Positions 1 through 60,843 of a stretch of DNA of 61,798 nt are shown here, piece after piece. Each line of letters begins with the position of its first letter. Within the stretch, counting starts at the first letter, position 1. Both the position numbers and the translations under genes were made by a program. The stretch is from a virus (Duplodnaviria; Caudoviricetes): IMG/VR virus record IMGVR_UViG_3300049982_000075, positions 1-61,798 of that record. One strand, written 5' to 3'. The notes beneath the pieces are model-generated. The model had not been told where the DNA came from and searched no databases. It saw only the letters and a list, made by a program, of their open reading frames with translations.

Positions 1-127
1 CCGCCGCACTGGCCAAGGAGATCCTGGAAAAAGGTCTCCCGAAGTCTAGACCTGAGGGCAATGGTGTGTGTAAAGTCTGCACAATCAAGAACGGGCACGC
101 GGGTTGGTGCCCTCGAGTTTCCTAGGA
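1..127. repeat. 127-bp terminal direct repeat (circular assembly overlap), copy 1
   Basis: 1-127 is identical to 61672-61798; 127 is a common assembler k-mer; ORF 61626-61796 runs through the repeat. Confidence 0.95.
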
Positions 128-135
128 GGCACTAC

Positions 136-1092
136 ATGAGCGAGCTGATCATCACCCGGGGATTGCCGGGCTCAGGCAAGACGACCTACGCCAAGCGCTG
201 GGTGGCCGGAGACGCCACGCGCCGCTCCCGGGTCAATCGGGATGACCTGCGCGAGCTCCTGCACGGCGGTCCGCACGACTACGATCGGGCGCTCGAGCAG
301 GCGGTCACCTGGGCCCATCAGGGCGCCGTTCGCACGCTGCTGATGTCCGGCCGCGACGTCATCTGCGACGACATGAACCTGCAGAACCGGCAGGTCAAGG
401 AGTGGATGAAGCTGGCGGCCGAGGTCGGCGCCGACTTCTCCGTGGTCGACTTCACCAACGTCTCGCCGGACGAGTGTGTTCGTCGAGACCGGGACCGTCG
501 CGACGCCGGCGGCCGGTACGTCGGAGCGTCCTACATCTACGAGAAGTACGACCGGTTCATCAAGGGCCGGAAGTATCCACTTCCGTTACCAGAGGCCCCT
601 GCGCGACAGCACGTCGAACCGTATGTCGCTCCGGAAGGCCAGCCGAAGGCCATCCTGATCGACATCGACGGTACGGTGGCGCTGATGAACGGCCGAGGCC
701 CGTATGACTGGCACCGAGTCGGCGAGGACAAGCCGAATCCGGCGGTGGCTCAGCTGGTCACCTGGTTATTCGAGTACAGGGACACCGCTAACGACGTCTA
801 CGCTGTCGCGGCGGGTGATGAGTTCCAGATCGTCTTCATGTCTGGCCGCGACGCGTCCTGCGCCAACGAGACGCGGGACTGGCTGAAGCAGCAGGGATGG
901 AAGGGTTTCGACCTCTTCATGCGGCCTGAGGGCGACATGCGCAAGGATTCGATCGTCAAGCTCGAGCTCTTCGACGAGCATATCCGCCACTACTACGATG
1001 TCCAGTTCGTGCTCGACGACCGGCAGCAGGTCGTCGACATGTGGCGCTCGCTCGGCCTAACCTGCCTGCAGGTCGCTCCGGGCGACTTCTGA
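136..1092 (+). CDS. pseT: Polynucleotide 5'-kinase/3'-phosphatase (T4 PseT/PNK-like)
   Basis: N-terminal P-loop GLPGSGKTT plus RDDLR; C-terminal HAD DIDGT, SGR, K, DDR motifs; AGGAGG RBS before ATG 136. Confidence 0.95.
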   Translation: MSELIITRGLPGSGKTTYAKRWVAGDATRRSRVNRDDLRELLHGGPHDYDRALEQAVTWAHQGAVRTLLMSGRDVICDDMNLQNRQVKEWMKLAAEVGADFSVVDFTNVSPDECVRRDRDRRDAGGRYVGASYIYEKYDRFIKGRKYPLPLPEAPARQHVEPYVAPEGQPKAILIDIDGTVALMNGRGPYDWHRVGEDKPNPAVAQLVTWLFEYRDTANDVYAVAAGDEFQIVFMSGRDASCANETRDWLKQQGWKGFDLFMRPEGDMRKDSIVKLELFDEHIRHYYDVQFVLDDRQQVVDMWRSLGLTCLQVAPGDF

Positions 1093-2127: not shown

Positions 2128-2333
2128 TCGCGCAACAGGTTGTCGCCGTGATCACCGACCTGCTTGCATTCTGGCCCGCCGCCGCGCTACTGGCAGCCGG
2201 CTGGTTTGCACGCGACGCACTGTGCCGCTACCGTGAGTACCAGCAGAACCGGAGGTATAGCCATGGTCATTCAGGTCTTCTTCGCCAAGCGCGGCCGCGA
2301 AAGACGCGCTCGAACGTTCGACGTCATCGCTGA
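2124..2333 (+). CDS. Small membrane protein
   Basis: N-terminal hydrophobic helix; ATGA overlap with upstream gene. Confidence 0.5.
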   Translation: MIAQQVVAVITDLLAFWPAAALLAAGWFARDALCRYREYQQNRRYSHGHSGLLRQARPRKTRSNVRRHR

Positions 2334-2505
2334 AAACTGCGACCGGATCACCGACATGTACCGAATGCTCTTGAGCGGATACGCAAATGGCAATCCGGTC
2401 AGCGCGGAACACTGGGAGCGAACGGAGGCTCGATACGACGAGGTGTTCGTCGCTGGCCAGAAGGCCTGCCTGACAGCCGCGAGGATCCGCAGTGGCTTGG
2501 AGTGA
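2263..2505 (+). CDS. Hypothetical protein
   Basis: GGAGG RBS before ATG 2263. Confidence 0.55.
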   Translation: MVIQVFFAKRGRERRARTFDVIAENCDRITDMYRMLLSGYANGNPVSAEHWERTEARYDEVFVAGQKACLTAARIRSGLE

Positions 2506-2815
2506 TGGAGAAGGTCGCCAGCTCCCGCCAGACTGGTTCAAGACCGTCTCGATCGTCAAGGCGAGGGCCAAGAAGTCCTCGCCGCTCGGCATCCAGCAGT
2601 GCGAGAAACGGTTGCCGAGCGGGAAGCGATGCCCTCGATACGGCACCGATGTCGACCACAAGTACGACCGCGACGACCACCGGCCGTATCGGCTCCAGTT
2701 GCTCTGTCCGGACCATCACAAGGCCAAGACGGCACAGGAAGCCCGCCAGGGGCGCGCACGGCCGAAGAAGCGGATCGACCCGAGAGACGAGCACCCAGGC
2801 CATCGCTTGGGGTAG
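2492..2815 (+). CDS. HNH endonuclease
   Basis: LPPDW...CE...RC...DVDH...DDH...LQLLCPDHHKAKT, typical actinophage packaging-associated HNH. Confidence 0.88.
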   Translation: MAWSDGEGRQLPPDWFKTVSIVKARAKKSSPLGIQQCEKRLPSGKRCPRYGTDVDHKYDRDDHRPYRLQLLCPDHHKAKTAQEARQGRARPKKRIDPRDEHPGHRLG

Positions 2816-2859
2816 CCTGGGAGGGACATGTACCCCTCTCTGTTCCAAGGAGGCCGCTC

Positions 2860-3396
2860 GTGGCCATCGTTCTGACTCAAGAGGTCAACGGCCAGGCCGT
2901 CGGCGCCACCTACAACGGCGACGCTGCGCTGGTCCCCTGGCTGATCGCCGAAGGCTACGCACTGGACACCTCCAACGTGCGTGACCACACCGACGACACT
3001 GCCGTGACCCCCGCCCAGGACCCGCTACTGGCCAGCAACCGAGAAGAGCCGAACGGCACTCAGGGCTGGGCGGCCGCCAACGGAGTGCAGGGCGACAGCC
3101 GGACCTTCCAGTTCGGTGCGGACGGGACCGTGCAGAAGCCGCAGGTCTACCAGATCACCCCCAACAAGGGCGTCGCGGCCGGCGGTACGGCGCTCGTCAT
3201 CAAGGGCGACAACTTCACTGGCGTGACTGCTGTCACGATCGGCGCCGTCGCGACCACGGCCTTCTCGGTCGTGAACGACAAGGAGATCCACTGCACCACC
3301 GGGGCTCACGCTGCCGGACCGGTGAACGTGGTGCTCGACAAGACCGGCACCGCGAACGACGTCACGGTGACCAACGGCTTCACCTACACGGCCTGA
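2860..3396 (+). CDS. IPT/TIG (Ig-like) domain protein, possible virion decoration
   Basis: C-terminal ITPNKGVAAGGTALVIKGDNFTGVTAVTIG...FTY IPT signature; AGGAGG RBS. Confidence 0.8.
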   Translation: MAIVLTQEVNGQAVGATYNGDAALVPWLIAEGYALDTSNVRDHTDDTAVTPAQDPLLASNREEPNGTQGWAAANGVQGDSRTFQFGADGTVQKPQVYQITPNKGVAAGGTALVIKGDNFTGVTAVTIGAVATTAFSVVNDKEIHCTTGAHAAGPVNVVLDKTGTANDVTVTNGFTYTA

Positions 3397-56144: not shown

Positions 56145-56517
56145 GCGCATTCAGCTCAGCAAGAAACGAACGGTAATGAGCCGTCGCGGCACTTTCCTCG
56201 GGGGGAAGCAAGTCGCACAGACCGGCGTGAAGCTGGAGCCGCTCGTCAAGGCTGACGGGCGTTGCTACAACGAGCGCACGGACAAGCACAAGATCGCCTT
56301 CAACACGGAGGAGAAGGCGGCCCTGGCCCTCTCGGCCGCGCGGAAGAACCATGAGAAGCTCGGACACACCGAGCGCATCGAGCAGCGGTACTACCAATGC
56401 CCGATCGAGGACCGTGGGGGAGCTGAGCGCGAGCACTTTCACCTCACCCACAAAGAGGAGCGCACGTCTACAGACGTTCGCTTCAAGGAGGAGAGGGTGC
56501 GCGATGACCGTAGCTGA
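56119..56517 (+). CDS. Hypothetical protein (C/H zinc-binding-like)
   Basis: GGAGG RBS; RC...K..F...A..AL...RYYQCP...HFHLT. Confidence 0.65.
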   Translation: MPRRNRRRRRIQLSKKRTVMSRRGTFLGGKQVAQTGVKLEPLVKADGRCYNERTDKHKIAFNTEEKAALALSAARKNHEKLGHTERIEQRYYQCPIEDRGGAEREHFHLTHKEERTSTDVRFKEERVRDDRS

Positions 56518-57805
56518 CAGCAACAAGCGAGGTAGACTCGGTGGCATGACCAAGCCTCGCAAGAACCTCGATGACGCCGTACGCCGCCTGATCGACGGCA
56601 CGCCGTCGCCGCTCGTGCGAGCTCCTGCCCCGAAGGACTTCCAGCCCGGCGTGAAGTACGAAGGCGGCCGGATCTCCGAGATCACCACCGCCGGTGTCGG
56701 CCGGGACCTGCGCGACGACGAAGACTTCTCCGAGCTACTGGCTGAGATGGGCATCGTCGTACCGATCGGATACCGAATCATCCTCGACGAGGCTAGGTTC
56801 GACCCGGCCGCCTGGCATCGCGACGGCCAGGGCGAGGACGCCGTCACGCGCGAGGTGTGGCGCTACCGGTTCAAGGTCGTCCCCGCCGCGCTCACGCCCG
56901 GCCAGGACGAGGATCTGGAGAAGCTCTTCGCAGCCGCGCGCAAGACCCAGCGCGCGCGGCCCCGGCCGACCGAGTTCGACAAGGCCACCATGGTCGTCGT
57001 GCTCGGCGACATTCAGGCTGGCAAGGTCGACCGTCGCGGCGGCACCGTCGAGCTTCTGGAGCGCTTCGAGCACGCCAAGAGCGACGTCATGAAGCGGGCC
57101 CGCAAGATGCGCCCGCAGCAGATCGTCATCGTGGACGCCGGCGATGCCATGGAGAACTTCGAGAGTTCTCCGGGCGCCGATCGGACCAACGACCTGCAGC
57201 TCACCGAGCAGATGCGACTGTGGCGCCGAGTGTTCTGGGACTGGGTGTCCAACCTGGCGTTCCTGGCGCCCGAGATCGACGTCCTGTCGGTGCCGTCCAA
57301 CCACTGCAGCGTTCGACGCGGCAAGCAGAACATGTCCACACCCGGGGACGACTACGGGCTGGAAGTTCTGTCGCAGCTGGCCGACATCGCAGCGGAGAAC
57401 TCGCAGTTCAGCCACATCAACTTCTGGTCGCCTGAGGAGCACGAGGAGGCGCTCGCCCTGACCCTGGTCGGCGGCAAGACCCTCGGACTTGTCCACGGAC
57501 ACCAGAAGAGCCGGCCCGAACTGGCCGCGCAGTACATGGCTGGCCAGGCGCTCGGCCGCACTCCGATCGGTGACGCCGATATCGTCGTCATGGGACATTG
57601 GCACAACCTGCGTGTGCAGACCTTCGGCGACGACCGCTGGCTGTTCATCTGTCCGACGATGGACTCCGGCAGCTCCTGGTACGCCAACACCACCGGCGAG
57701 GAGTCGGCTGCCGGCGTGTTGACCTTCATGGTCGACGAGCGCGGCTGGCGTGACCTGCATATCGCCTGGGCGCGGCCGGGCGTGGACTACGAGGTGATCG
57801 GGTGA
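56504..57805 (+). CDS. Calcineurin-like metallophosphoesterase (Mre11-like nuclease family)
   Basis: GDIQ, GDAME, SNH, HGH, GHWH motifs. Confidence 0.85.
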   Translation: MTVADSNKRGRLGGMTKPRKNLDDAVRRLIDGTPSPLVRAPAPKDFQPGVKYEGGRISEITTAGVGRDLRDDEDFSELLAEMGIVVPIGYRIILDEARFDPAAWHRDGQGEDAVTREVWRYRFKVVPAALTPGQDEDLEKLFAAARKTQRARPRPTEFDKATMVVVLGDIQAGKVDRRGGTVELLERFEHAKSDVMKRARKMRPQQIVIVDAGDAMENFESSPGADRTNDLQLTEQMRLWRRVFWDWVSNLAFLAPEIDVLSVPSNHCSVRRGKQNMSTPGDDYGLEVLSQLADIAAENSQFSHINFWSPEEHEEALALTLVGGKTLGLVHGHQKSRPELAAQYMAGQALGRTPIGDADIVVMGHWHNLRVQTFGDDRWLFICPTMDSGSSWYANTTGEESAAGVLTFMVDERGWRDLHIAWARPGVDYEVIG

Positions 57806-58002
57806 CGACCGTGGCAACCGACGAGAAGCAGCCTCAGCATCCCACCGTGGCCGAGCTCGAGGAGGCCATCACTCACCTGGCCGAGACGTGCCGGCGCTAC
57901 GGCCGGTTCGCCCAGAAGTACGGCGAGTGGCACGAGGAGATCAACCACCTCCTGACGGATCGGGAAACTGCCCTCTTGACGAGGTCCGGCGGAGTCCTGT
58001 AG
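57802..58002 (+). CDS. Hypothetical protein
   Basis: GTGA coupling. Confidence 0.6.
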   Translation: MTTVATDEKQPQHPTVAELEEAITHLAETCRRYGRFAQKYGEWHEEINHLLTDRETALLTRSGGVL

Positions 58003-58005
58003 AGT
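57976..58005 (+). promoter_or_regulatory. SigA-like promoter driving the RNA island
   Basis: TTGACG-N18-TAGAGT. Confidence 0.7.
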
Positions 58006-58314
58006 TTCTCTCAGGTCGAGAGAGCAAGTACCGAGCCTCCAGAGGGATCCCGGGCAAGGTGCGGCCGGCCAGCCAGCGCTCTCGATTTAGCTGAGGACTA
58101 GCGGAAGTCTCGCAAGGCCCGCCAAGCGGGCGGACCGAGACAGTTTTGTATCCCTTTCCACCTAACGGCCGGGTTCGAGCCGGGTTTGGGCTATGCCGAG
58201 CAGGGGCGGATCCTGCCACTCAGCGAATTGAACCTGCAGGAAGCTCTTCCCCGGATGCAAGGGTTGAGTGGGGCGGTATGGGAGTAGCAGACAATTTCCA
58301 TACGCGGTCTCTAA

Positions 58315-58387
58315 CGCGGGGTAGTTCAGTTGGCAGAACGCCGGGCTCATAATCCGGTAGTCATGGGTTCGAGTCCCATCCCCGCCA
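58315..58387 (+). tRNA. tRNA-fMet (CAT)
   Basis: full cloverleaf; C1xC72 mismatch; CCGGG-CTCATAA-TCCGG anticodon arm; TTCGAGT T-loop. Confidence 0.92.
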
Positions 58388-58398
58388 CGAAGCAACAA

Positions 58399-58469
58399 GC
58401 CGGACTTGTGTAATGGCAGCACACCAGGTTCTCAACCTGGAAGCAGGGGATCGATACCCCTGTCCGGTA
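58399..58469 (+). tRNA. tRNA-Glu (CTC), atypical T-loop
   Basis: GCCGGAC/GTCCGGT acceptor; CCAGG-TTCTCAA-CCTGG; T-loop ATCGATA. Confidence 0.8.
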
Positions 58470-58541
58470 CGCCTCCCGACCGGCATCTTGCGGCGCCTAT
58501 AGGGAAATCCCGTGAGTGACGGGGAGATAGTCACTCTGGTA

Positions 58542-58636
58542 GTCCGTTTAGCTCAAAGGTAAGAGCGCCCTCCCAAACGAGGGGTTAGTGCCAACCAGGC
58601 TGGTTGGACGTCCGGGGTCGAGACCCGGAACGGACG
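58542..58636 (+). ncRNA. tRNA-like RNA with long variable arm and 6-nt anticodon loop (Leu-CAA-like)
   Basis: GTCCGTT/AACGGAC acceptor, normal D arm, CCCTC-CCAAAC-GAGGG, CCAACCA/TGGTTGG V arm, CCGGG-GTCGAGA-CCCGG. Confidence 0.7.
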
Positions 58637-58731
58637 CGAGAGAGTCGGTACGATGGCCGGACCGACCGCCGAGGGCTAGCAGAGTGCGGGGATGCCGCGA
58701 CCGAGGCTTGACAGTGGCAAGGTAGGCCTGA

Positions 58732-58799
58732 GCGGAGCGGTCAGGGACCGTCGCTGCCTCCAAAGCAGTGATAGCGGAGATCAATACTTCGGCTCCGTG
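58732..58799 (+). tRNA. Compact tRNA-Trp (CCA) with reduced D arm
   Basis: GCGGAGC/GCTCCGT acceptor, G73, TCGCTGC-CTCCAAA-GCAGTGA, CGGAG-ATCAATA-CTTCG. Confidence 0.7.
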
Positions 58800-58810
58800 C
58801 GAGTCAATTC

Positions 58811-58890
58811 GGGGTTGTAATGGTTTCGATCGTCGGTAAGGCCCCACGTGGGAGACCGGCGGGACCTGGGTTCGATTCCCAGCAACTCCA
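58811..58890 (+). ncRNA. Mini-tmRNA: tRNA-like domain only, no mRNA-like domain
   Basis: GGGGTTG/CAACTCC-A acceptor with G3:U70; stemless D loop TAATGGTTTCGA; short P2; GGAC-CTGGG-TTCGATT-CCCAG T arm. Confidence 0.8.
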
Positions 58891-58903
58891 CGCAGTACTG
58901 CAC

Positions 58904-58978
58904 GGTGACGTAGCAGTCCGGGATAGCGGAAGTGGTGAACCGTCGCAAGGGACGGCGCTGAGCTCCGGGTGCGTCACC
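58904..58978 (+). ncRNA. Orphan long hairpin RNA
   Basis: GGTGACGTA/TGCGTCACC, CCGGG/TCCGG, TAGCG/CGCTG, CCGTC-GCAAGG-GACGG. Confidence 0.5.
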
Positions 58979-58981
58979 TAT

Positions 58982-59068
58982 TCCCTACTAGCTCAATCGG
59001 AAGAGCGGCCGGCTGTTAACCGGCGTCAGCGCGCAAGCGTGGACCAGGATCGAAACCTGGGTGGGGAG
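58982..59068 (+). tRNA. tRNA-Asn (GTT) with long variable arm
   Basis: TCCCTAC/GTGGGGA-G acceptor; GCCGG-CTGTTAA-CCGGC; V arm GCGC-GCAA-GCGT; T-loop ATCGAAA. Confidence 0.85.
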
Positions 59069-59071
59069 CGA

Positions 59072-59160
59072 GGGTGAGGTAGTGGCGTAGTTCAACTGGC
59101 CAGAATCTGTCCGCCAGAGGGCAGGATGCGGGTTCGAATCCCGTCGCCGGTGCCTCACCC
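59072..59160 (+). ncRNA. tRNA mimic with extended acceptor helix and aberrant anticodon loop
   Basis: GGGTGAGGTA/TGCCTCACCC outer stem; D arm GTTC...GAAT; CTGTCC-GCCAGA-GGGCAG; GCGGG-TTCGAAT-CCCGT. Confidence 0.65.
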
Positions 59161-59164
59161 GCTA

Positions 59165-59239
59165 GGGCCTCTAGCTCAGTGGACATAGAGCAGCCGACTC
59201 TTAATCGGCGGGTCGTGGGTTCGAATCCCACGGGGCCTA
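59165..59239 (+). tRNA. tRNA-Lys (CTT)
   Basis: canonical cloverleaf; GCCGA-CTCTTAA-TCGGC; TTCGAAT. Confidence 0.95.
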
Positions 59240-59462
59240 CAAGGCAGCATCGAACCACATCGTCGCGAAGATGACGTGGTCGGCTTGGCCTCGGTGGCGA
59301 CCGAATACGCCGGAGTGGTGACCGACAATCACTCGCCTTGGCGGCGCGTATCCGTCCCCCGTAGCGCAGGGTGATAGGGCAGCGGCGACGGACCGCAAAC
59401 CGTTCGGCCTCCTCGGCCGTGAAGAGGGTGCCTCGCGACAGGCATAGTTGGTCGCAGATGTT

Positions 59463-59510
59463 GGCCCCACCAGGGCTGGTCCACTTGCGGACCACTGGTG
59501 GGGCCTTCGT
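59463..59510 (+). terminator. Long hairpin closing the RNA island
   Basis: GGCCCCACCAG...TGGTCC/GGACCA...CTGGTGGGGCC then TTCGT. Confidence 0.6.
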
Positions 59511-59595
59511 CGTATCACATGCTGGACAGGGTCTTGCACTATTGTGCGGATATCGGCAGGATGGTACCCATCACCAACGGAGGGAGATCGACCAC

Positions 59596-60843
59596 ATGGA
59601 CATCTACGATCTGCTCGATGCCACTGAGCTGTACAAGCTTCGTGAGTTGGGCTACATCTCGAAGCGGGAACACCCGACGGAGCCGCTGTCGATCCTGAAC
59701 TACACGGACAAGGCGCAGCTGGCCGACGCCGACTTCTGGGCGGCGCACCCGGCGCTGTCGCACTGCCGAGGCCTGATCTACAACTCCTACACCAACGAGA
59801 TCGTGGCCCGGCCTTTCCGGAAGTTCTGGAACCACAACCAGCCGGCGGCCGACAAGATCGACCTAAAGGAGCGCGTTTACGCGACGGACAAGGTCGACGG
59901 ATCGCTGGGGATCATGTACCGCGAACCGAGCGGCGACCTGGCCATCGCCACACGGGGCAGCTTCACCTCGGACCAGGCCCTGCACGCCACTCATCTGCTG
60001 CGCACCAAGTACCAGATGAGTCTGGCAGGCCCCCGGGACCCTCGTGAGCGCTACCACGCGGCCGACGACGAGACCTTCCTGTTCGAGATCGTCTACCCCG
60101 AGAACCGGATCGTGCTCGACTACCACGGCGCTGACGAGCTAATCCTGCTCGGGTCCGTCGAGATCGACAGCGGCTACGTCTCGCTCCCGGCGGCGGCTAG
60201 CATCCACCTGGACTGGACCGGTTGGACCGCTCAGACCTTCGGCTATAACACCCTGGGCGACGCCCTGGCGGCCGCGCCACGGCCGAACGCCGAGGGGTTC
60301 GTCATCGCGACGCGCGGCGGCGAGAAGATGGTCAAGATCAAGCAGGAGGACTACGTTCGGCTGCACAAGATCATCTTCGGCCTGACCGAGAAGTCGATCT
60401 GGCGCGCTCTGGTGGCCGGCGATTCGCTGGACAGCCTGCTCGAGCCGCTGCCGGATGAATTCCACGCCTGGGTCCGCGAGGTCTACGGCCGACTCAAGGG
60501 TGCGGCTTCGACGTGGGGCGAAGGCGTCCGCGAGGAGTACCGGCGGATCATCGACGCTGGCGACTGGGAGCCGGTGTCCGACTATCAAGACCATGCTGCC
60601 CGGGCTGAGAACAAGAAGCGGTTTGCCCAGATCGTCAAGGGCGACAGGGACTCGTGGGCGTACTTCCAGCTCTACATCGGCCGTGGTGCGGACATCGAGC
60701 AGACGTACCTGGAGAAGCACCTGGAGCCGGTCGGCGCGACCGGTCCGGCCTCGACCAAGACCGAGGAGGTCTGCCTGGAGTGGAAGGCGGGCAGTCGATG
60801 CCCTGGCTGCATGGGGTGCCCATTCGATCGTGAGGAGGACTGA
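59596..60843 (+). CDS. rnlA: RNA ligase, T4 Rnl1 family
   Basis: LNYT, CRGLI, RPFRKFWN, KVDGSLG (motif I), ATRGSF, FEI, EGFVI, KIK; AGGGAG RBS; TTGCAC-N17-CAGGAT promoter. Confidence 0.93.
   Translation: MDIYDLLDATELYKLRELGYISKREHPTEPLSILNYTDKAQLADADFWAAHPALSHCRGLIYNSYTNEIVARPFRKFWNHNQPAADKIDLKERVYATDKVDGSLGIMYREPSGDLAIATRGSFTSDQALHATHLLRTKYQMSLAGPRDPRERYHAADDETFLFEIVYPENRIVLDYHGADELILLGSVEIDSGYVSLPAAASIHLDWTGWTAQTFGYNTLGDALAAAPRPNAEGFVIATRGGEKMVKIKQEDYVRLHKIIFGLTEKSIWRALVAGDSLDSLLEPLPDEFHAWVREVYGRLKGAASTWGEGVREEYRRIIDAGDWEPVSDYQDHAARAENKKRFAQIVKGDRDSWAYFQLYIGRGADIEQTYLEKHLEPVGATGPASTKTEEVCLEWKAGSRCPGCMGCPFDREED

What the first reader, a model, noticed from the sequence alone, without database searches (positions are those of the whole stretch)
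58811..58890. 80-nt mini-tmRNA with only the tRNA-like domain: candidate SmpB decoy or tag-less ribosome rescuer
Seen in sequence: GGGGTTG-TAATGGTTTCGA-TCGTCGGT-AAGG-CCCCACGTGGG-AG-ACCGGCGG-GAC-CTGGG-TTCGATT-CCCAG-CAACTCC-A. It has the tmRNA hallmarks: a GGGG 5' end, the G3:U70 alanylation determinant, A73, an unpaired D loop ending GGTTTCGA, and the GAC linker before a perfect T arm. Helix P2 is closed after about 8 bp by a tiny hairpin, so the pseudoknots, resume codon and tag ORF are all absent. The acceptor stem stays fully paired (U5-A68, U6-A67), which argues for selection rather than decay. Established: SmpB binds the elbow of this domain; known phage tmRNAs are full length; tag-less tmRNAs are known from jakobid mitochondria. 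Inference: the phage either titrates host SmpB to block trans-translation and tagging of phage proteins, or takes nascent chains from stalled ribosomes without tagging them. Either would be useful when host toxins cleave mRNA or tRNA.
Basis: partly seen in the sequence, partly recalled or inferred. Interest (0 to 1): 0.92.

Follow-up and report, generated by a model that had tools for sequence, protein, structure and literature searches.

The report
Phage mini-tmRNA lacking the tag template
This soil phage carries an 80-base copy of the bacterial ribosome-rescue RNA (tmRNA) that keeps only the tRNA-like end, a kind of gene already reported from one mycobacteriophage that turns out to recur, unannotated, in many phages.

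Summary
Window 58811-58890 (+) matches Rfam tmRNA RF00023 at 56 bits (cut-off 47, E 2.7e-19). Both ends align, but about 304 internal model positions are replaced by 13 nt. There are no pseudoknots, no resume codon and no tag frame.

It is not a one-off deletion. My covariance model found about 80-nt homologues in 81 of 120 pattern-fetched IMG/VR loci, against 1 of 120 cellular loci. It also found them in cultured phages of Mycobacterium (DS6A), Streptomyces, Pontimonas and Stenotrophomonas. Across 88 distinct sequences, 87 keep a fully paired acceptor stem with G1-C72, G2-C71 and G3:U70, and all 88 keep A73. Acceptor pairs 4-7, helix P2 and the outer T stem covary strongly.

DS6A's "TLD only" tmRNA is in print (2009, 2014, 2025), along with the SmpB-titration idea.

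Best reading: a host-processed, alanine-chargeable TLD that engages host SmpB and diverts trans-translation without tagging. The phage encodes no SmpB. Function was not tested here. In the window the gene sits in a tRNA array next to an Rnl1-type RNA ligase and a polynucleotide kinase.

Verdict: a real new member of a known kind. The family appears much larger than the literature I could search records.

The parts
58811..58890 (+). Mini-tmRNA gene (TLD only), G1 to discriminator A73, 80 nt. The trailer CGC at 58891-58893 is not CCA.
   Evidence: Rfam RF00023 at 56 bits, E 2.7e-19. Own model R1 at 92.4 bits. Sequence read.
58811..58817 (+). Acceptor stem, 5' strand GGGGTTG. It pairs with 58883-58889.
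   Evidence: 7 of 7 pairs including G3:U70. The same register holds in 87 of 88 distinct family members.
58818..58829 (+). D-loop analogue TAATGGTTTCGA, with no D stem.
   Evidence: Aligned to the tmRNA consensus GGaUUCGA. Conserved in sequence, not by covariation, across the family. TTCGA was forced by my search pattern; the GG.T before it was not.
58830..58837 (+). Helix P2, 5' strand TCGTCGGT.
   Evidence: 8 pairs with 58855-58862. 7 of the 8 P2 pairs show compensatory changes across the family.
58838..58854 (+). P2 cap: purine bulge AAGG, a 3-bp hairpin with loop ACGT inside CCCCACGTGGG, then AG. It stands where the pseudoknots and the tag template would be.
   Evidence: inner hairpin predicted in 64 of 69 distinct members. 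Related caps (e.g. CCGCACGCGG) occur in DS6A and in Streptomyces phages.
58855..58862 (+). Helix P2, 3' strand ACCGGCGG.
58863..58882 (+). GAC linker plus T arm (CTGGG-TTCGATT-CCCAG).
   Evidence: Matches the tmRNA consensus. The two outer T-stem pairs covary across the family. The GGG/CCC core and the loop were forced by my search pattern.
58883..58890 (+). Acceptor stem, 3' strand CAACTCC, plus discriminator A73.
58315..59240 (+). tRNA array on the same strand that holds the mini-tmRNA. Seven ARAGORN calls: Met, Glu, Val?, Trp?, Asn, an 8-nt-loop tRNA, and Lys.
   Evidence: ARAGORN. Rfam tRNA hits for five of the seven. A 10-nt spacer separates the ARAGORN Trp call (ends 58800) from the mini-tmRNA.
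57976..58005 (+). Promoter-like site upstream of the array (TTGACG-18-TAGAGT).
   Evidence: Consensus scan only, 9 of 12 matches. 1 site found against 0.4 expected. No terminator-like site in 57500-59600. Weak evidence.
59371..60843 (+). Rnl1-type RNA ligase gene immediately downstream of the array.
   Evidence: PF09511 RNA_lig_T4_1 at E 6.3e-15. phrog_562 at E 1.3e-62.
61..1092 (+). Polynucleotide kinase gene. It lies next to the ligase across the terminal repeat in a concatemer or circular map.
   Evidence: phrog_505 polynucleotide kinase at E 2.7e-95. The record has direct terminal repeats.
56351..57805 (+). Exonuclease-like gene upstream of the array. Relatives lie next to the mini-tmRNA in DS6A and three IMG/VR loci.
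   Evidence: phrog_284 exonuclease at E 1.9e-53. Weak Metallophos_2 match. Neighbour cluster.

Best explanation
It is a functional gene for an ~80-nt tmRNA that keeps only the tRNA-like domain. It belongs to a phage-borne family whose published member is mycobacteriophage DS6A.

Inferred mechanism:
1. It is transcribed with the tRNA array.
2. It is cut out by the host's tRNA-processing enzymes and given CCA by the host.
3. It is charged with alanine by host AlaRS through G3:U70 and A73.
4. It is bound by host SmpB, and as Ala-TLD by EF-Tu.
5. It then competes with the host's full-length tmRNA for SmpB and for stalled ribosomes.

Because it has no resume codon, tag frame or stop codon, whatever it engages is not ssrA-tagged. 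The net effect is diversion or inhibition of host trans-translation during infection. In this phage it sits with spare tRNAs and tRNA-repair enzymes, so it probably acts when host nucleases damage the translation apparatus.

Shown here: the identity, the family, and the selection on structure and on the alanine identity elements. Inferred: processing, charging, SmpB binding and the effect on the host.
For: Identity:
- RF00023 hit at 56 bits against a cut-off of 47, with the internal domain deleted.

Family:
- Model R1 finds ~80-nt copies in 81 of 120 IMG/VR loci fetched by a TLD pattern.
- It finds copies in 38 of 48 further loci.
- It finds copies in DS6A, Jojan60, LuckySocke, pSt2308, BRock, phiPsal1 and Riptide.
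- The same pattern on cellular genomes gave 1 of 120.

Selection:
- 96.2% of cells are paired, against 67.2% in shuffles (0 of 500 reach the observed value) and 44-53% when partners are slid.
- 14 of 20 pairs carry compensatory changes.
- RNAalifold predicts the same 20 pairs on its own.

Alanine identity:
- Across 88 distinct sequences, 87 have 7 of 7 acceptor pairs with GGG/UCC (G3:U70), and 88 have A73.
- Pairs 4-6 each take 4 to 6 pair types.
- None of these positions was in my search pattern.

Dependence on the host:
- No SmpB in the window or in 5 other complete phage records.
- Those phages carry no full-length tmRNA either.

Literature:
- PMC4131195 says a DS6A-like TLD molecule strongly inhibits tmRNA, perhaps by titrating SmpB. 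PMC11915505 repeats it. Passages seen.
- A TLD-only RNA accepts peptidyl transfer in vitro (Shimizu and Ueda 2006, as described in the discussion of PMC3895274).

Context:
- The Rnl1-type ligase and the polynucleotide kinase flank the array.
Against: - There is no expression, charging or SmpB-binding data for this or any natural copy. I found no RNA run.
- According to PMC4131195, the E. coli mimic inhibited whether or not it could be charged. Inhibition alone therefore does not explain the invariant G3:U70.
- I could not read Mao et al. 2009 itself.
- Blocking ribosome rescue could hurt the phage. The lambda-immP22 hybrid needs charged tmRNA and ribosome recycling (background of PMC2862035).
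- The link to RNA repair is loose. Only 18 of 87 copies lie within 500 nt of a tRNA. 22 of 87 sit in head-gene modules. 0 of 4 relatives of the ligase gene have a copy nearby. Rnl1 is present in only 2 of 5 other complete genomes.
Confidence: 0.55

Rival explanations
1. Productive tag-less rescuer. Ala-TLD with SmpB enters stalled ribosomes and takes the nascent chain. The peptidyl-TLD is then resolved by host factors (drop-off with Pth, or ArfB-type hydrolysis). Ribosomes are recycled faster and phage proteins escape tagging when host nucleases cut mRNA or tRNA.
For: The alanine identity set is invariant while neighbouring pairs vary. This points to a charged, ribosome-acting molecule rather than a passive sponge. 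A TLD-only RNA undergoes peptidyl transfer in vitro (PMC3895274 discussion). Phage growth in the lambda-immP22 test depends on charging and ribosome recycling more than on tagging (PMC2862035 background). CDS-less tmRNAs persist alongside SmpB in mitochondria and some plastids (PMC11915505). Related phages carry full-length tmRNAs, for example GMA2 with the same acceptor stem. The gene neighbours tRNAs, the RNA ligase and the kinase.
Against: Without a stop codon there is no known release route. PMC11915505 itself notes that CDS-less forms may be unable to release the ribosome. The title of O'Connor 2007, cited in PMC2862035, states that minimal translation of the tag region is required for release; I saw only the title. 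The window encodes no RF-1/ArfB or Pth domain. The published E. coli mimic inhibited rather than complemented.
Confidence: 0.25
2. A tRNA-shaped element with a role outside trans-translation. It could be an RNase P/Z processing signal that punctuates polycistronic phage transcripts. It could also be a decoy for host toxins that attack tRNA acceptor ends.
For: 22 of 87 copies lie on the coding strand between the prohead protease and major capsid genes, about 100-120 nt upstream of the capsid gene. The same arrangement occurs in Pontimonas phage phiPsal1. 66 of 87 fetched loci contain no tRNA at all.
Against: A processing signal or a generic decoy would not need the tmRNA-specific D-loop analogue, the GAC linker or the invariant G3:U70 and A73. 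These features are what separate it from tRNAs in Rfam's clan competition.
Confidence: 0.1
3. A decaying remnant of a full-length phage ssrA, or an attP fragment left by integration into a host tmRNA gene. Either way it would have no function of its own.
For: Phages do integrate into tmRNA genes and carry the 3' part of the gene (PMC10865867 introduction; PMC9004378). The weak cellular hits of 33-38 bits look like such broken copies. Riptide's copy, which sits beside a full-length tmRNA, is degraded in the D-loop and GGAC motifs.
Against: Both halves of the acceptor stem are present and covary in 87 of 88 distinct sequences. An attP core holds only the 3' half. No tyrosine integrase is present in the window. 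DS6A integrates at a tRNA-Lys gene, not at ssrA (PMC10865867 table). The architecture is uniform at 73-81 nt in 86 of 88 members.
Confidence: 0.04
4. An aberrant tRNA-Ala gene.
For: G3:U70, A73 and a canonical T arm. It sits in a tRNA array.
Against: There is no D stem, no 7-nt anticodon loop and no anticodon. ARAGORN does not call it. Rfam's clan competition assigns it to tmRNA.
Confidence: 0.02

Closest known systems
Mycobacteriophage DS6A 'TLD only' tmRNA (tmRNA Website tmID 11587; Phage__Mycobacterium.9)
   Same: About 80 nt. It has the acceptor stem with G3:U70 and A73, the D-loop analogue, a short P2 closed by a purine bulge plus a small G(CNNG)C-type hairpin, and the T arm. It has no tag frame. 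My model hits it at JN698994 28478-28560 with 56.7 bits. Like the window copy, it is not annotated in the GenBank record.
   Different: Different phage and host; DS6A is temperate and has no tRNA array. DS6A's D-loop and T-arm sequences deviate (GGTGGTCGAC and GCGAG...CTCGC), and it falls below Rfam's cut-off at 43.2 bits. The window copy passes the cut-off and lies among tRNAs and RNA-repair genes.
Full-length phage tmRNAs (e.g. Gordonia phage GMA2; Bxz1-like mycobacteriophages; Streptomyces phages with annotated tag peptides)
   Same: Phage-borne ssrA genes, often beside tRNA arrays. GMA2's acceptor stem is identical, GGGGTTG/CAACTCC.
   Different: They are 270-410 nt and carry pseudoknots and a tag reading frame. 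The window RNA has 17 nt in that place.
CDS-less organellar tmRNAs (jakobid and other mitochondria; ~65-bp Mallomonadaceae plastid forms)
   Same: tmRNA reduced to the tRNA-like part, retained together with SmpB (PMC11915505).
   Different: The mitochondrial forms are usually permuted two-piece genes with their own Rfam model. They evolved in reduced organelle genomes, not in a virus that relies on the host's SmpB.
Engineered TLD constructs used in trans-translation biochemistry
   Same: Acceptor/T minihelix, D-loop analogue and a capped P2 stub. They accept peptidyl transfer in vitro (PMC3895274 discussion). A DS6A-like mimic inhibits tmRNA in E. coli (PMC4131195).
   Different: They are artificial. 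The design details of those constructs are recalled, not checked here.
tRNA-Ala
   Same: G3:U70 and A73 identity elements, the T arm, and CCA added after transcription.
   Different: No D stem, no anticodon arm and no anticodon.

Membership tests
tmRNA (Rfam RF00023), tRNA-like domain | Covariance-model score above the curated gathering score | tested here: met
   56.0 bits against 47, E 2.7e-19.
tmRNA (Rfam RF00023), tRNA-like domain | 7-bp acceptor stem with G3:U70 and discriminator A73 | tested here: met
   GGGGTTG/CAACTCC followed by A.
tmRNA (Rfam RF00023), tRNA-like domain | D-loop analogue without a D stem (GGnUUCGA), a GAC linker, and a 5-bp T stem with a 7-nt T loop | tested here: met
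   Aligned to the model consensus; sequence read.
Full tmRNA (able to carry out trans-translation with tagging) | mRNA-like domain with resume codon, tag reading frame and stop codon | tested here: not met
   Only 17 nt lie between the P2 strands, and 304 model positions are deleted.
Full tmRNA (able to carry out trans-translation with tagging) | Pseudoknots PK1-PK4 | tested here: not met
   There is no room for them.
Full tmRNA (able to carry out trans-translation with tagging) | Alanylation by AlaRS and binding by SmpB | not testable with these tools
   The identity elements are present and invariant in the family. No SmpB gene is present in the phage.
Phage TLD-only tmRNA (DS6A type) | About 80 nt, with P2 closed by a short cap in place of the mRNA-like domain | tested here: met
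   80 nt. The family range is 73-81 nt in 86 of 88 distinct members. Cap hairpin shown.
Phage TLD-only tmRNA (DS6A type) | Homology to the DS6A copy | tested here: met
   A model built without DS6A hits it at 56.7 bits, E about 1e-11. The cap motif is shared.
Phage TLD-only tmRNA (DS6A type) | Inhibits endogenous tmRNA when expressed | not testable with these tools
   Reported for a DS6A-like molecule in E. coli, as cited in PMC4131195 and PMC11915505. The primary paper is not held.
Mitochondrial tmRNA (RF02544) | Match to that model | tested here: inconclusive
   It was not listed. However, overlapping lower-scoring matches from the same clan are suppressed in that output.
tRNA (RF00005) / tRNA-Ala | Cloverleaf with a D stem and an anticodon arm bearing an alanine anticodon | tested here: not met
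   Not called by ARAGORN. Rfam assigns the stretch to tmRNA. No anticodon loop is present in the sequence.

The most novel reading that the evidence does not exclude
TLD-only tmRNAs form a widespread, essentially virus-specific RNA family that standard annotation misses. Because the alanine identity set is strictly kept, they may act as charged molecules on stalled ribosomes. That would give tag-free takeover of host ribosome rescue, serving as a phage countermeasure to RNA-cleaving host defences. They would then be more than SmpB sponges.
Probability: 0.3. Interest if true: 0.8.

Novelty: new member of a known kind. Interest (0 to 1): 0.5.

Why it matters
A phage RNA that takes over or blocks the host's main ribosome-rescue pathway would be a compact, RNA-only way to manipulate host translation. 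The published record I could search holds one phage example (DS6A). The 2025 tmRNA database counts only 9 'standard, no CDS' forms and 79 phage sequences in all.

- They occur in phages of at least four host genera.
- They are nearly absent from the cellular sample.
- None of the GenBank records I inspected annotates them.
- ARAGORN missed 85 of 87.

The invariant G3:U70 gives a sharp test, charging against mere SmpB binding, in tractable Streptomyces phage systems.

Tried and rejected
- **Expression:** The look-up of sequencing runs listed no RNA holder, only three DNA runs of one soil-metagenome study, one of which may be the source. I did not lay reads.
- **Mao et al. 2009:** not held. I know it only through two citing papers. 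One title search failed on term length.
- **Literature on a wider phage family:** searches found nothing beyond DS6A in the held library. Subscription journals and supplements were not searched.
- **AcrIIIA1 paper:** it concerns fragments of host tmRNA, not a phage gene, so I set it aside.
- **Protein-anchored search for relatives of this phage:** using the RNA ligase gave 4 loci, none with a mini-tmRNA.
- **BLAST with the head-module type (L011):** no cultured phage found. With L014, only the 3' ends of full-length tmRNAs matched.
- **Phage-encoded release factor:** ArfB/RF-1 and Pth searches were both negative.
- **attP reading:** rejected. There is no tyrosine integrase, and DS6A integrates at a tRNA-Lys gene.
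- **Single-sequence folding:** not informative (z -1.47).

Full report
**What is there**

The window is a complete 61,798-bp virus record with direct terminal repeats. It is about 64% G+C and comes from soil metagenome DNA. Its helicase is only 29% identical to those of Streptomyces phages.

Rfam's tmRNA model RF00023 hits 58811-58893 at 56.0 bits. The gathering score is 47 and the E-value is 2.7e-19. Both ends of the 374-position model align, and 304 internal positions are replaced by 13 nt.

What remains is:
- a 7-bp acceptor stem with G3:U70, followed by A73;
- the stemless D-loop analogue TAATGGTTTCGA;
- an 8-bp P2 helix;
- a 17-nt cap (AAGG, a 3-bp hairpin, AG);
- the GAC linker;
- a canonical T arm.

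There is no room for pseudoknots, a resume codon or a tag frame. ARAGORN finds seven tRNA genes around it (58315-59240) but does not call this one. Folding energy alone is unremarkable (z -1.47).

**Is it a one-off?**

No. BLAST found about 80-nt look-alikes in Stenotrophomonas virus Jojan60 and in Streptomyces phages LuckySocke, GiJojo and pSt2308. Rfam scores three of them at 57-62 bits, again with the interior deleted (GiJojo was not scanned). Gordonia phage GMA2 has a 412-nt full-length tmRNA with the same acceptor stem.

I built covariance model R1 from four of the short copies. I then scanned IMG/VR with a TLD pattern that allows only 25-55 nt between the D-loop motif and the T arm. R1 found a full-length match of at least 45 bits in 81 of the 120 loci, and one more at 39 bits.

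The same pattern on cellular genome contigs was also capped at 120. It gave one such match, on a 1.6-kb contig. The next-best cellular hits, at 33-38 bits, have broken stems.

Two narrower scans were not capped. They returned 29 and 52 loci, of which 28 and 37 are true copies (together). The first scan had picked up about 40% of these loci. The strict pattern therefore probably marks on the order of 200 copies in 2.9 million contigs. The family is rare but recurrent.

BLAST with another member added Pontimonas phage phiPsal1 and Streptomyces phages BRock, Alone3 and Riptide. R1 confirmed phiPsal1, BRock and Riptide.

**Selection**

For alignment A3 I passed on 87 of the 127 sources, namely those with a hit of at least 39 bits. 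It contains 70 distinct rows.
- 96.2% of cells form standard pairs, against 67.2% in shuffles. None of 500 shuffles reaches the observed value.
- With partners slid by 1-3 columns, 44-53% of cells pair.
- 14 of 20 pairs show changes on both sides.
- RNAalifold predicts the same 20 pairs on its own.

Three caveats apply. A3 is fitted to the model. The T-loop, the GGG/CCC core, TTCGA and GGAC were forced by my pattern. Related sequences inflate shuffle tests.

After correcting the 5' register by script and adding the later hits, there are 129 hits and 88 distinct sequences.
- 87 have 7 of 7 acceptor pairs beginning G1-C72, G2-C71, G3:U70.
- The exception, L044, has a 2-nt T-stem deletion.
- All 88 have A73.
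- Pairs 4, 5 and 6 each take four to six pair types.
- None of these acceptor positions was in the pattern.
- Length is 73-81 nt in 86 of the 88, and 95 nt in the other two.
- CCA is encoded in 21 of 88.
- A small inner hairpin is predicted in 64 of 69. It is often G(CNNG)C, for example CCGCACGCGG, and DS6A has the same motif.

**What is already known**

PMC4131195 lists 'Mycobacterium phage DS6A (TLD only)'. It states that a similar molecule, chargeable or not, strongly inhibits tmRNA, perhaps by titrating SmpB, and cites Mao et al. 2009 (passages seen).

PMC11915505 repeats this. It also reports about 65-bp CDS-less plastid forms, notes that mitochondrial tmRNA lacks a tag frame, and counts 79 phage sequences and 9 'standard, no CDS' forms among 97,179 (passages seen). 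I could not read Mao 2009.

R1, which was built without DS6A, hits JN698994 28478-28560 at 56.7 bits. The window RNA is therefore a homologue of the published one. My searches found no paper describing a wider phage family. Supplements and subscription journals were not covered.

**Context**

In the window, the array is preceded by an exonuclease-like gene (56351-57805). It is followed by an Rnl1-type RNA ligase (59371-60843). Across the terminal repeat lies a polynucleotide kinase (61-1092). The ligase and kinase together make the T4-style tRNA repair pair; that function is from established knowledge and was not tested here.

The neighbouring tRNAs also lack an encoded CCA. The window contains no SmpB, no RF-1/ArfB domain, no Pth and no tyrosine integrase.

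Five other complete carrier genomes have no SmpB. The five records searched hold no full-length tmRNA. Riptide has both a 269-nt tmRNA and a degraded mini copy.

Across the family the context varies:
- A tRNA lies within 500 nt in 18 of 87, and 66 of 87 fetched loci hold no tRNA.
- 22 of 87 sit between the prohead protease and the major capsid gene on the coding strand. phiPsal1 has the same arrangement.
- About 8 lie by DnaB-like or PD-(D/E)XK genes.
- Four relatives of the ligase gene carry no copy nearby.
- Rnl1 occurs in 2 of 5 other complete genomes. DS6A instead has an annotated RtcB-like ligase.

**Mechanism**

Shown here: a conserved tmRNA tRNA-like domain, under selection for its helices and for the alanine identity elements, in phages that lack SmpB.

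Inferred: host processing, CCA addition, alanylation, and SmpB and EF-Tu binding.

The published E. coli result favours inhibition of trans-translation. The invariant G3:U70 argues that the natural RNA must be charged and therefore acts on the ribosome. A TLD-only RNA does accept peptidyl transfer in vitro (PMC3895274 discussion).

Whether the peptidyl-TLD is then released (rescue) or stuck (block) is open. PMC11915505 doubts release for CDS-less forms. The background of PMC2862035 shows that at least one phage needs charging and ribosome recycling but hardly needs tagging.

I put 0.55 on a charged competitor that diverts host trans-translation and 0.25 on productive tag-less rescue. The remainder is split among a processing or decoy role, a remnant or attP fragment, and an aberrant tRNA.

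**Verdict**

The feature is real and well conserved. It is a new member of a known kind. The family-level picture goes beyond what I found in print and makes the function testable. That picture comprises the virus bias, the invariant alanine identity, the head-module copies, and the systematic absence from annotation (ARAGORN flagged 2 of 87).

Noticed in passing
window 59081-59154 (+): tRNA-like gene with an 8-nt anticodon loop. ARAGORN reports 'tRNA-???' with the four-base anticodon ccag. Its Rfam tRNA score of 29.2 bits sits exactly at the cut-off. It could be a quadruplet decoder or a decayed copy.
   Followed up: no
window 58542-58637, 58727-58800, 58982-59069 (+): Three odd ARAGORN tRNA calls. 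A 96-nt Val(aac) and a Trp(cca) get no Rfam tRNA hit even at E<=1. An 88-nt Asn(gtt), with roughly 20 extra nt in the variable region, scores 45.3 bits only in the sensitive scan.
   Followed up: partly
window 59371-60843 and 61-1092 (+): An Rnl1-type RNA ligase and a polynucleotide kinase lie on either side of the terminal repeat, next to the tRNA array. This is a T4-like tRNA repair pair.
   Followed up: partly
window 57806-58314 (+): About 500 nt between the exonuclease gene and the first tRNA have no Rfam hit. The stretch contains the only promoter-like site of the region, at 57976-58005.
   Followed up: no
L003 (Gordonia phage GMA2) 3342-3398 and 3057-3166: A Pistol ribozyme hit (56.8 bits, cut-off 34.5) lies directly after tRNA-Trp. 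A sub-threshold YrlA-like hit (43.1 bits, cut-off 69) lies directly after the full-length tmRNA.
   Followed up: no
L260 (Streptomyces phage Riptide) 2477-2556; record 94862-95130: Riptide carries a 269-nt tag-encoding tmRNA (92.9 bits) and also a divergent mini copy whose D-loop and GGAC motifs are degraded (R1 58.8 bits; not reported by Rfam at E<=0.001). A Ro-like RNA-binding protein gene lies upstream.
   Followed up: partly
L261 (Pontimonas phage phiPsal1) 2500-2581, and 22 IMG/VR loci such as L011, L030, L052: The mini-tmRNA sits on the coding strand between the prohead protease and major capsid genes, about 100-120 nt upstream of the capsid gene, in phages with no tRNA nearby.
   Followed up: partly
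L001 (Stenotrophomonas virus Jojan60) 2287-3075: The GenBank record annotates its four tRNAs on the strand opposite to where Rfam finds them. A 'hypothetical protein' CDS overlaps the start of the unannotated mini-tmRNA.
   Followed up: no
L073 11235-11332 and L056 11908-12005: Two 95-nt family members have a longer P2 (12-15 pairs) but still no tag region. They are the only length outliers among 88 distinct sequences.
   Followed up: no
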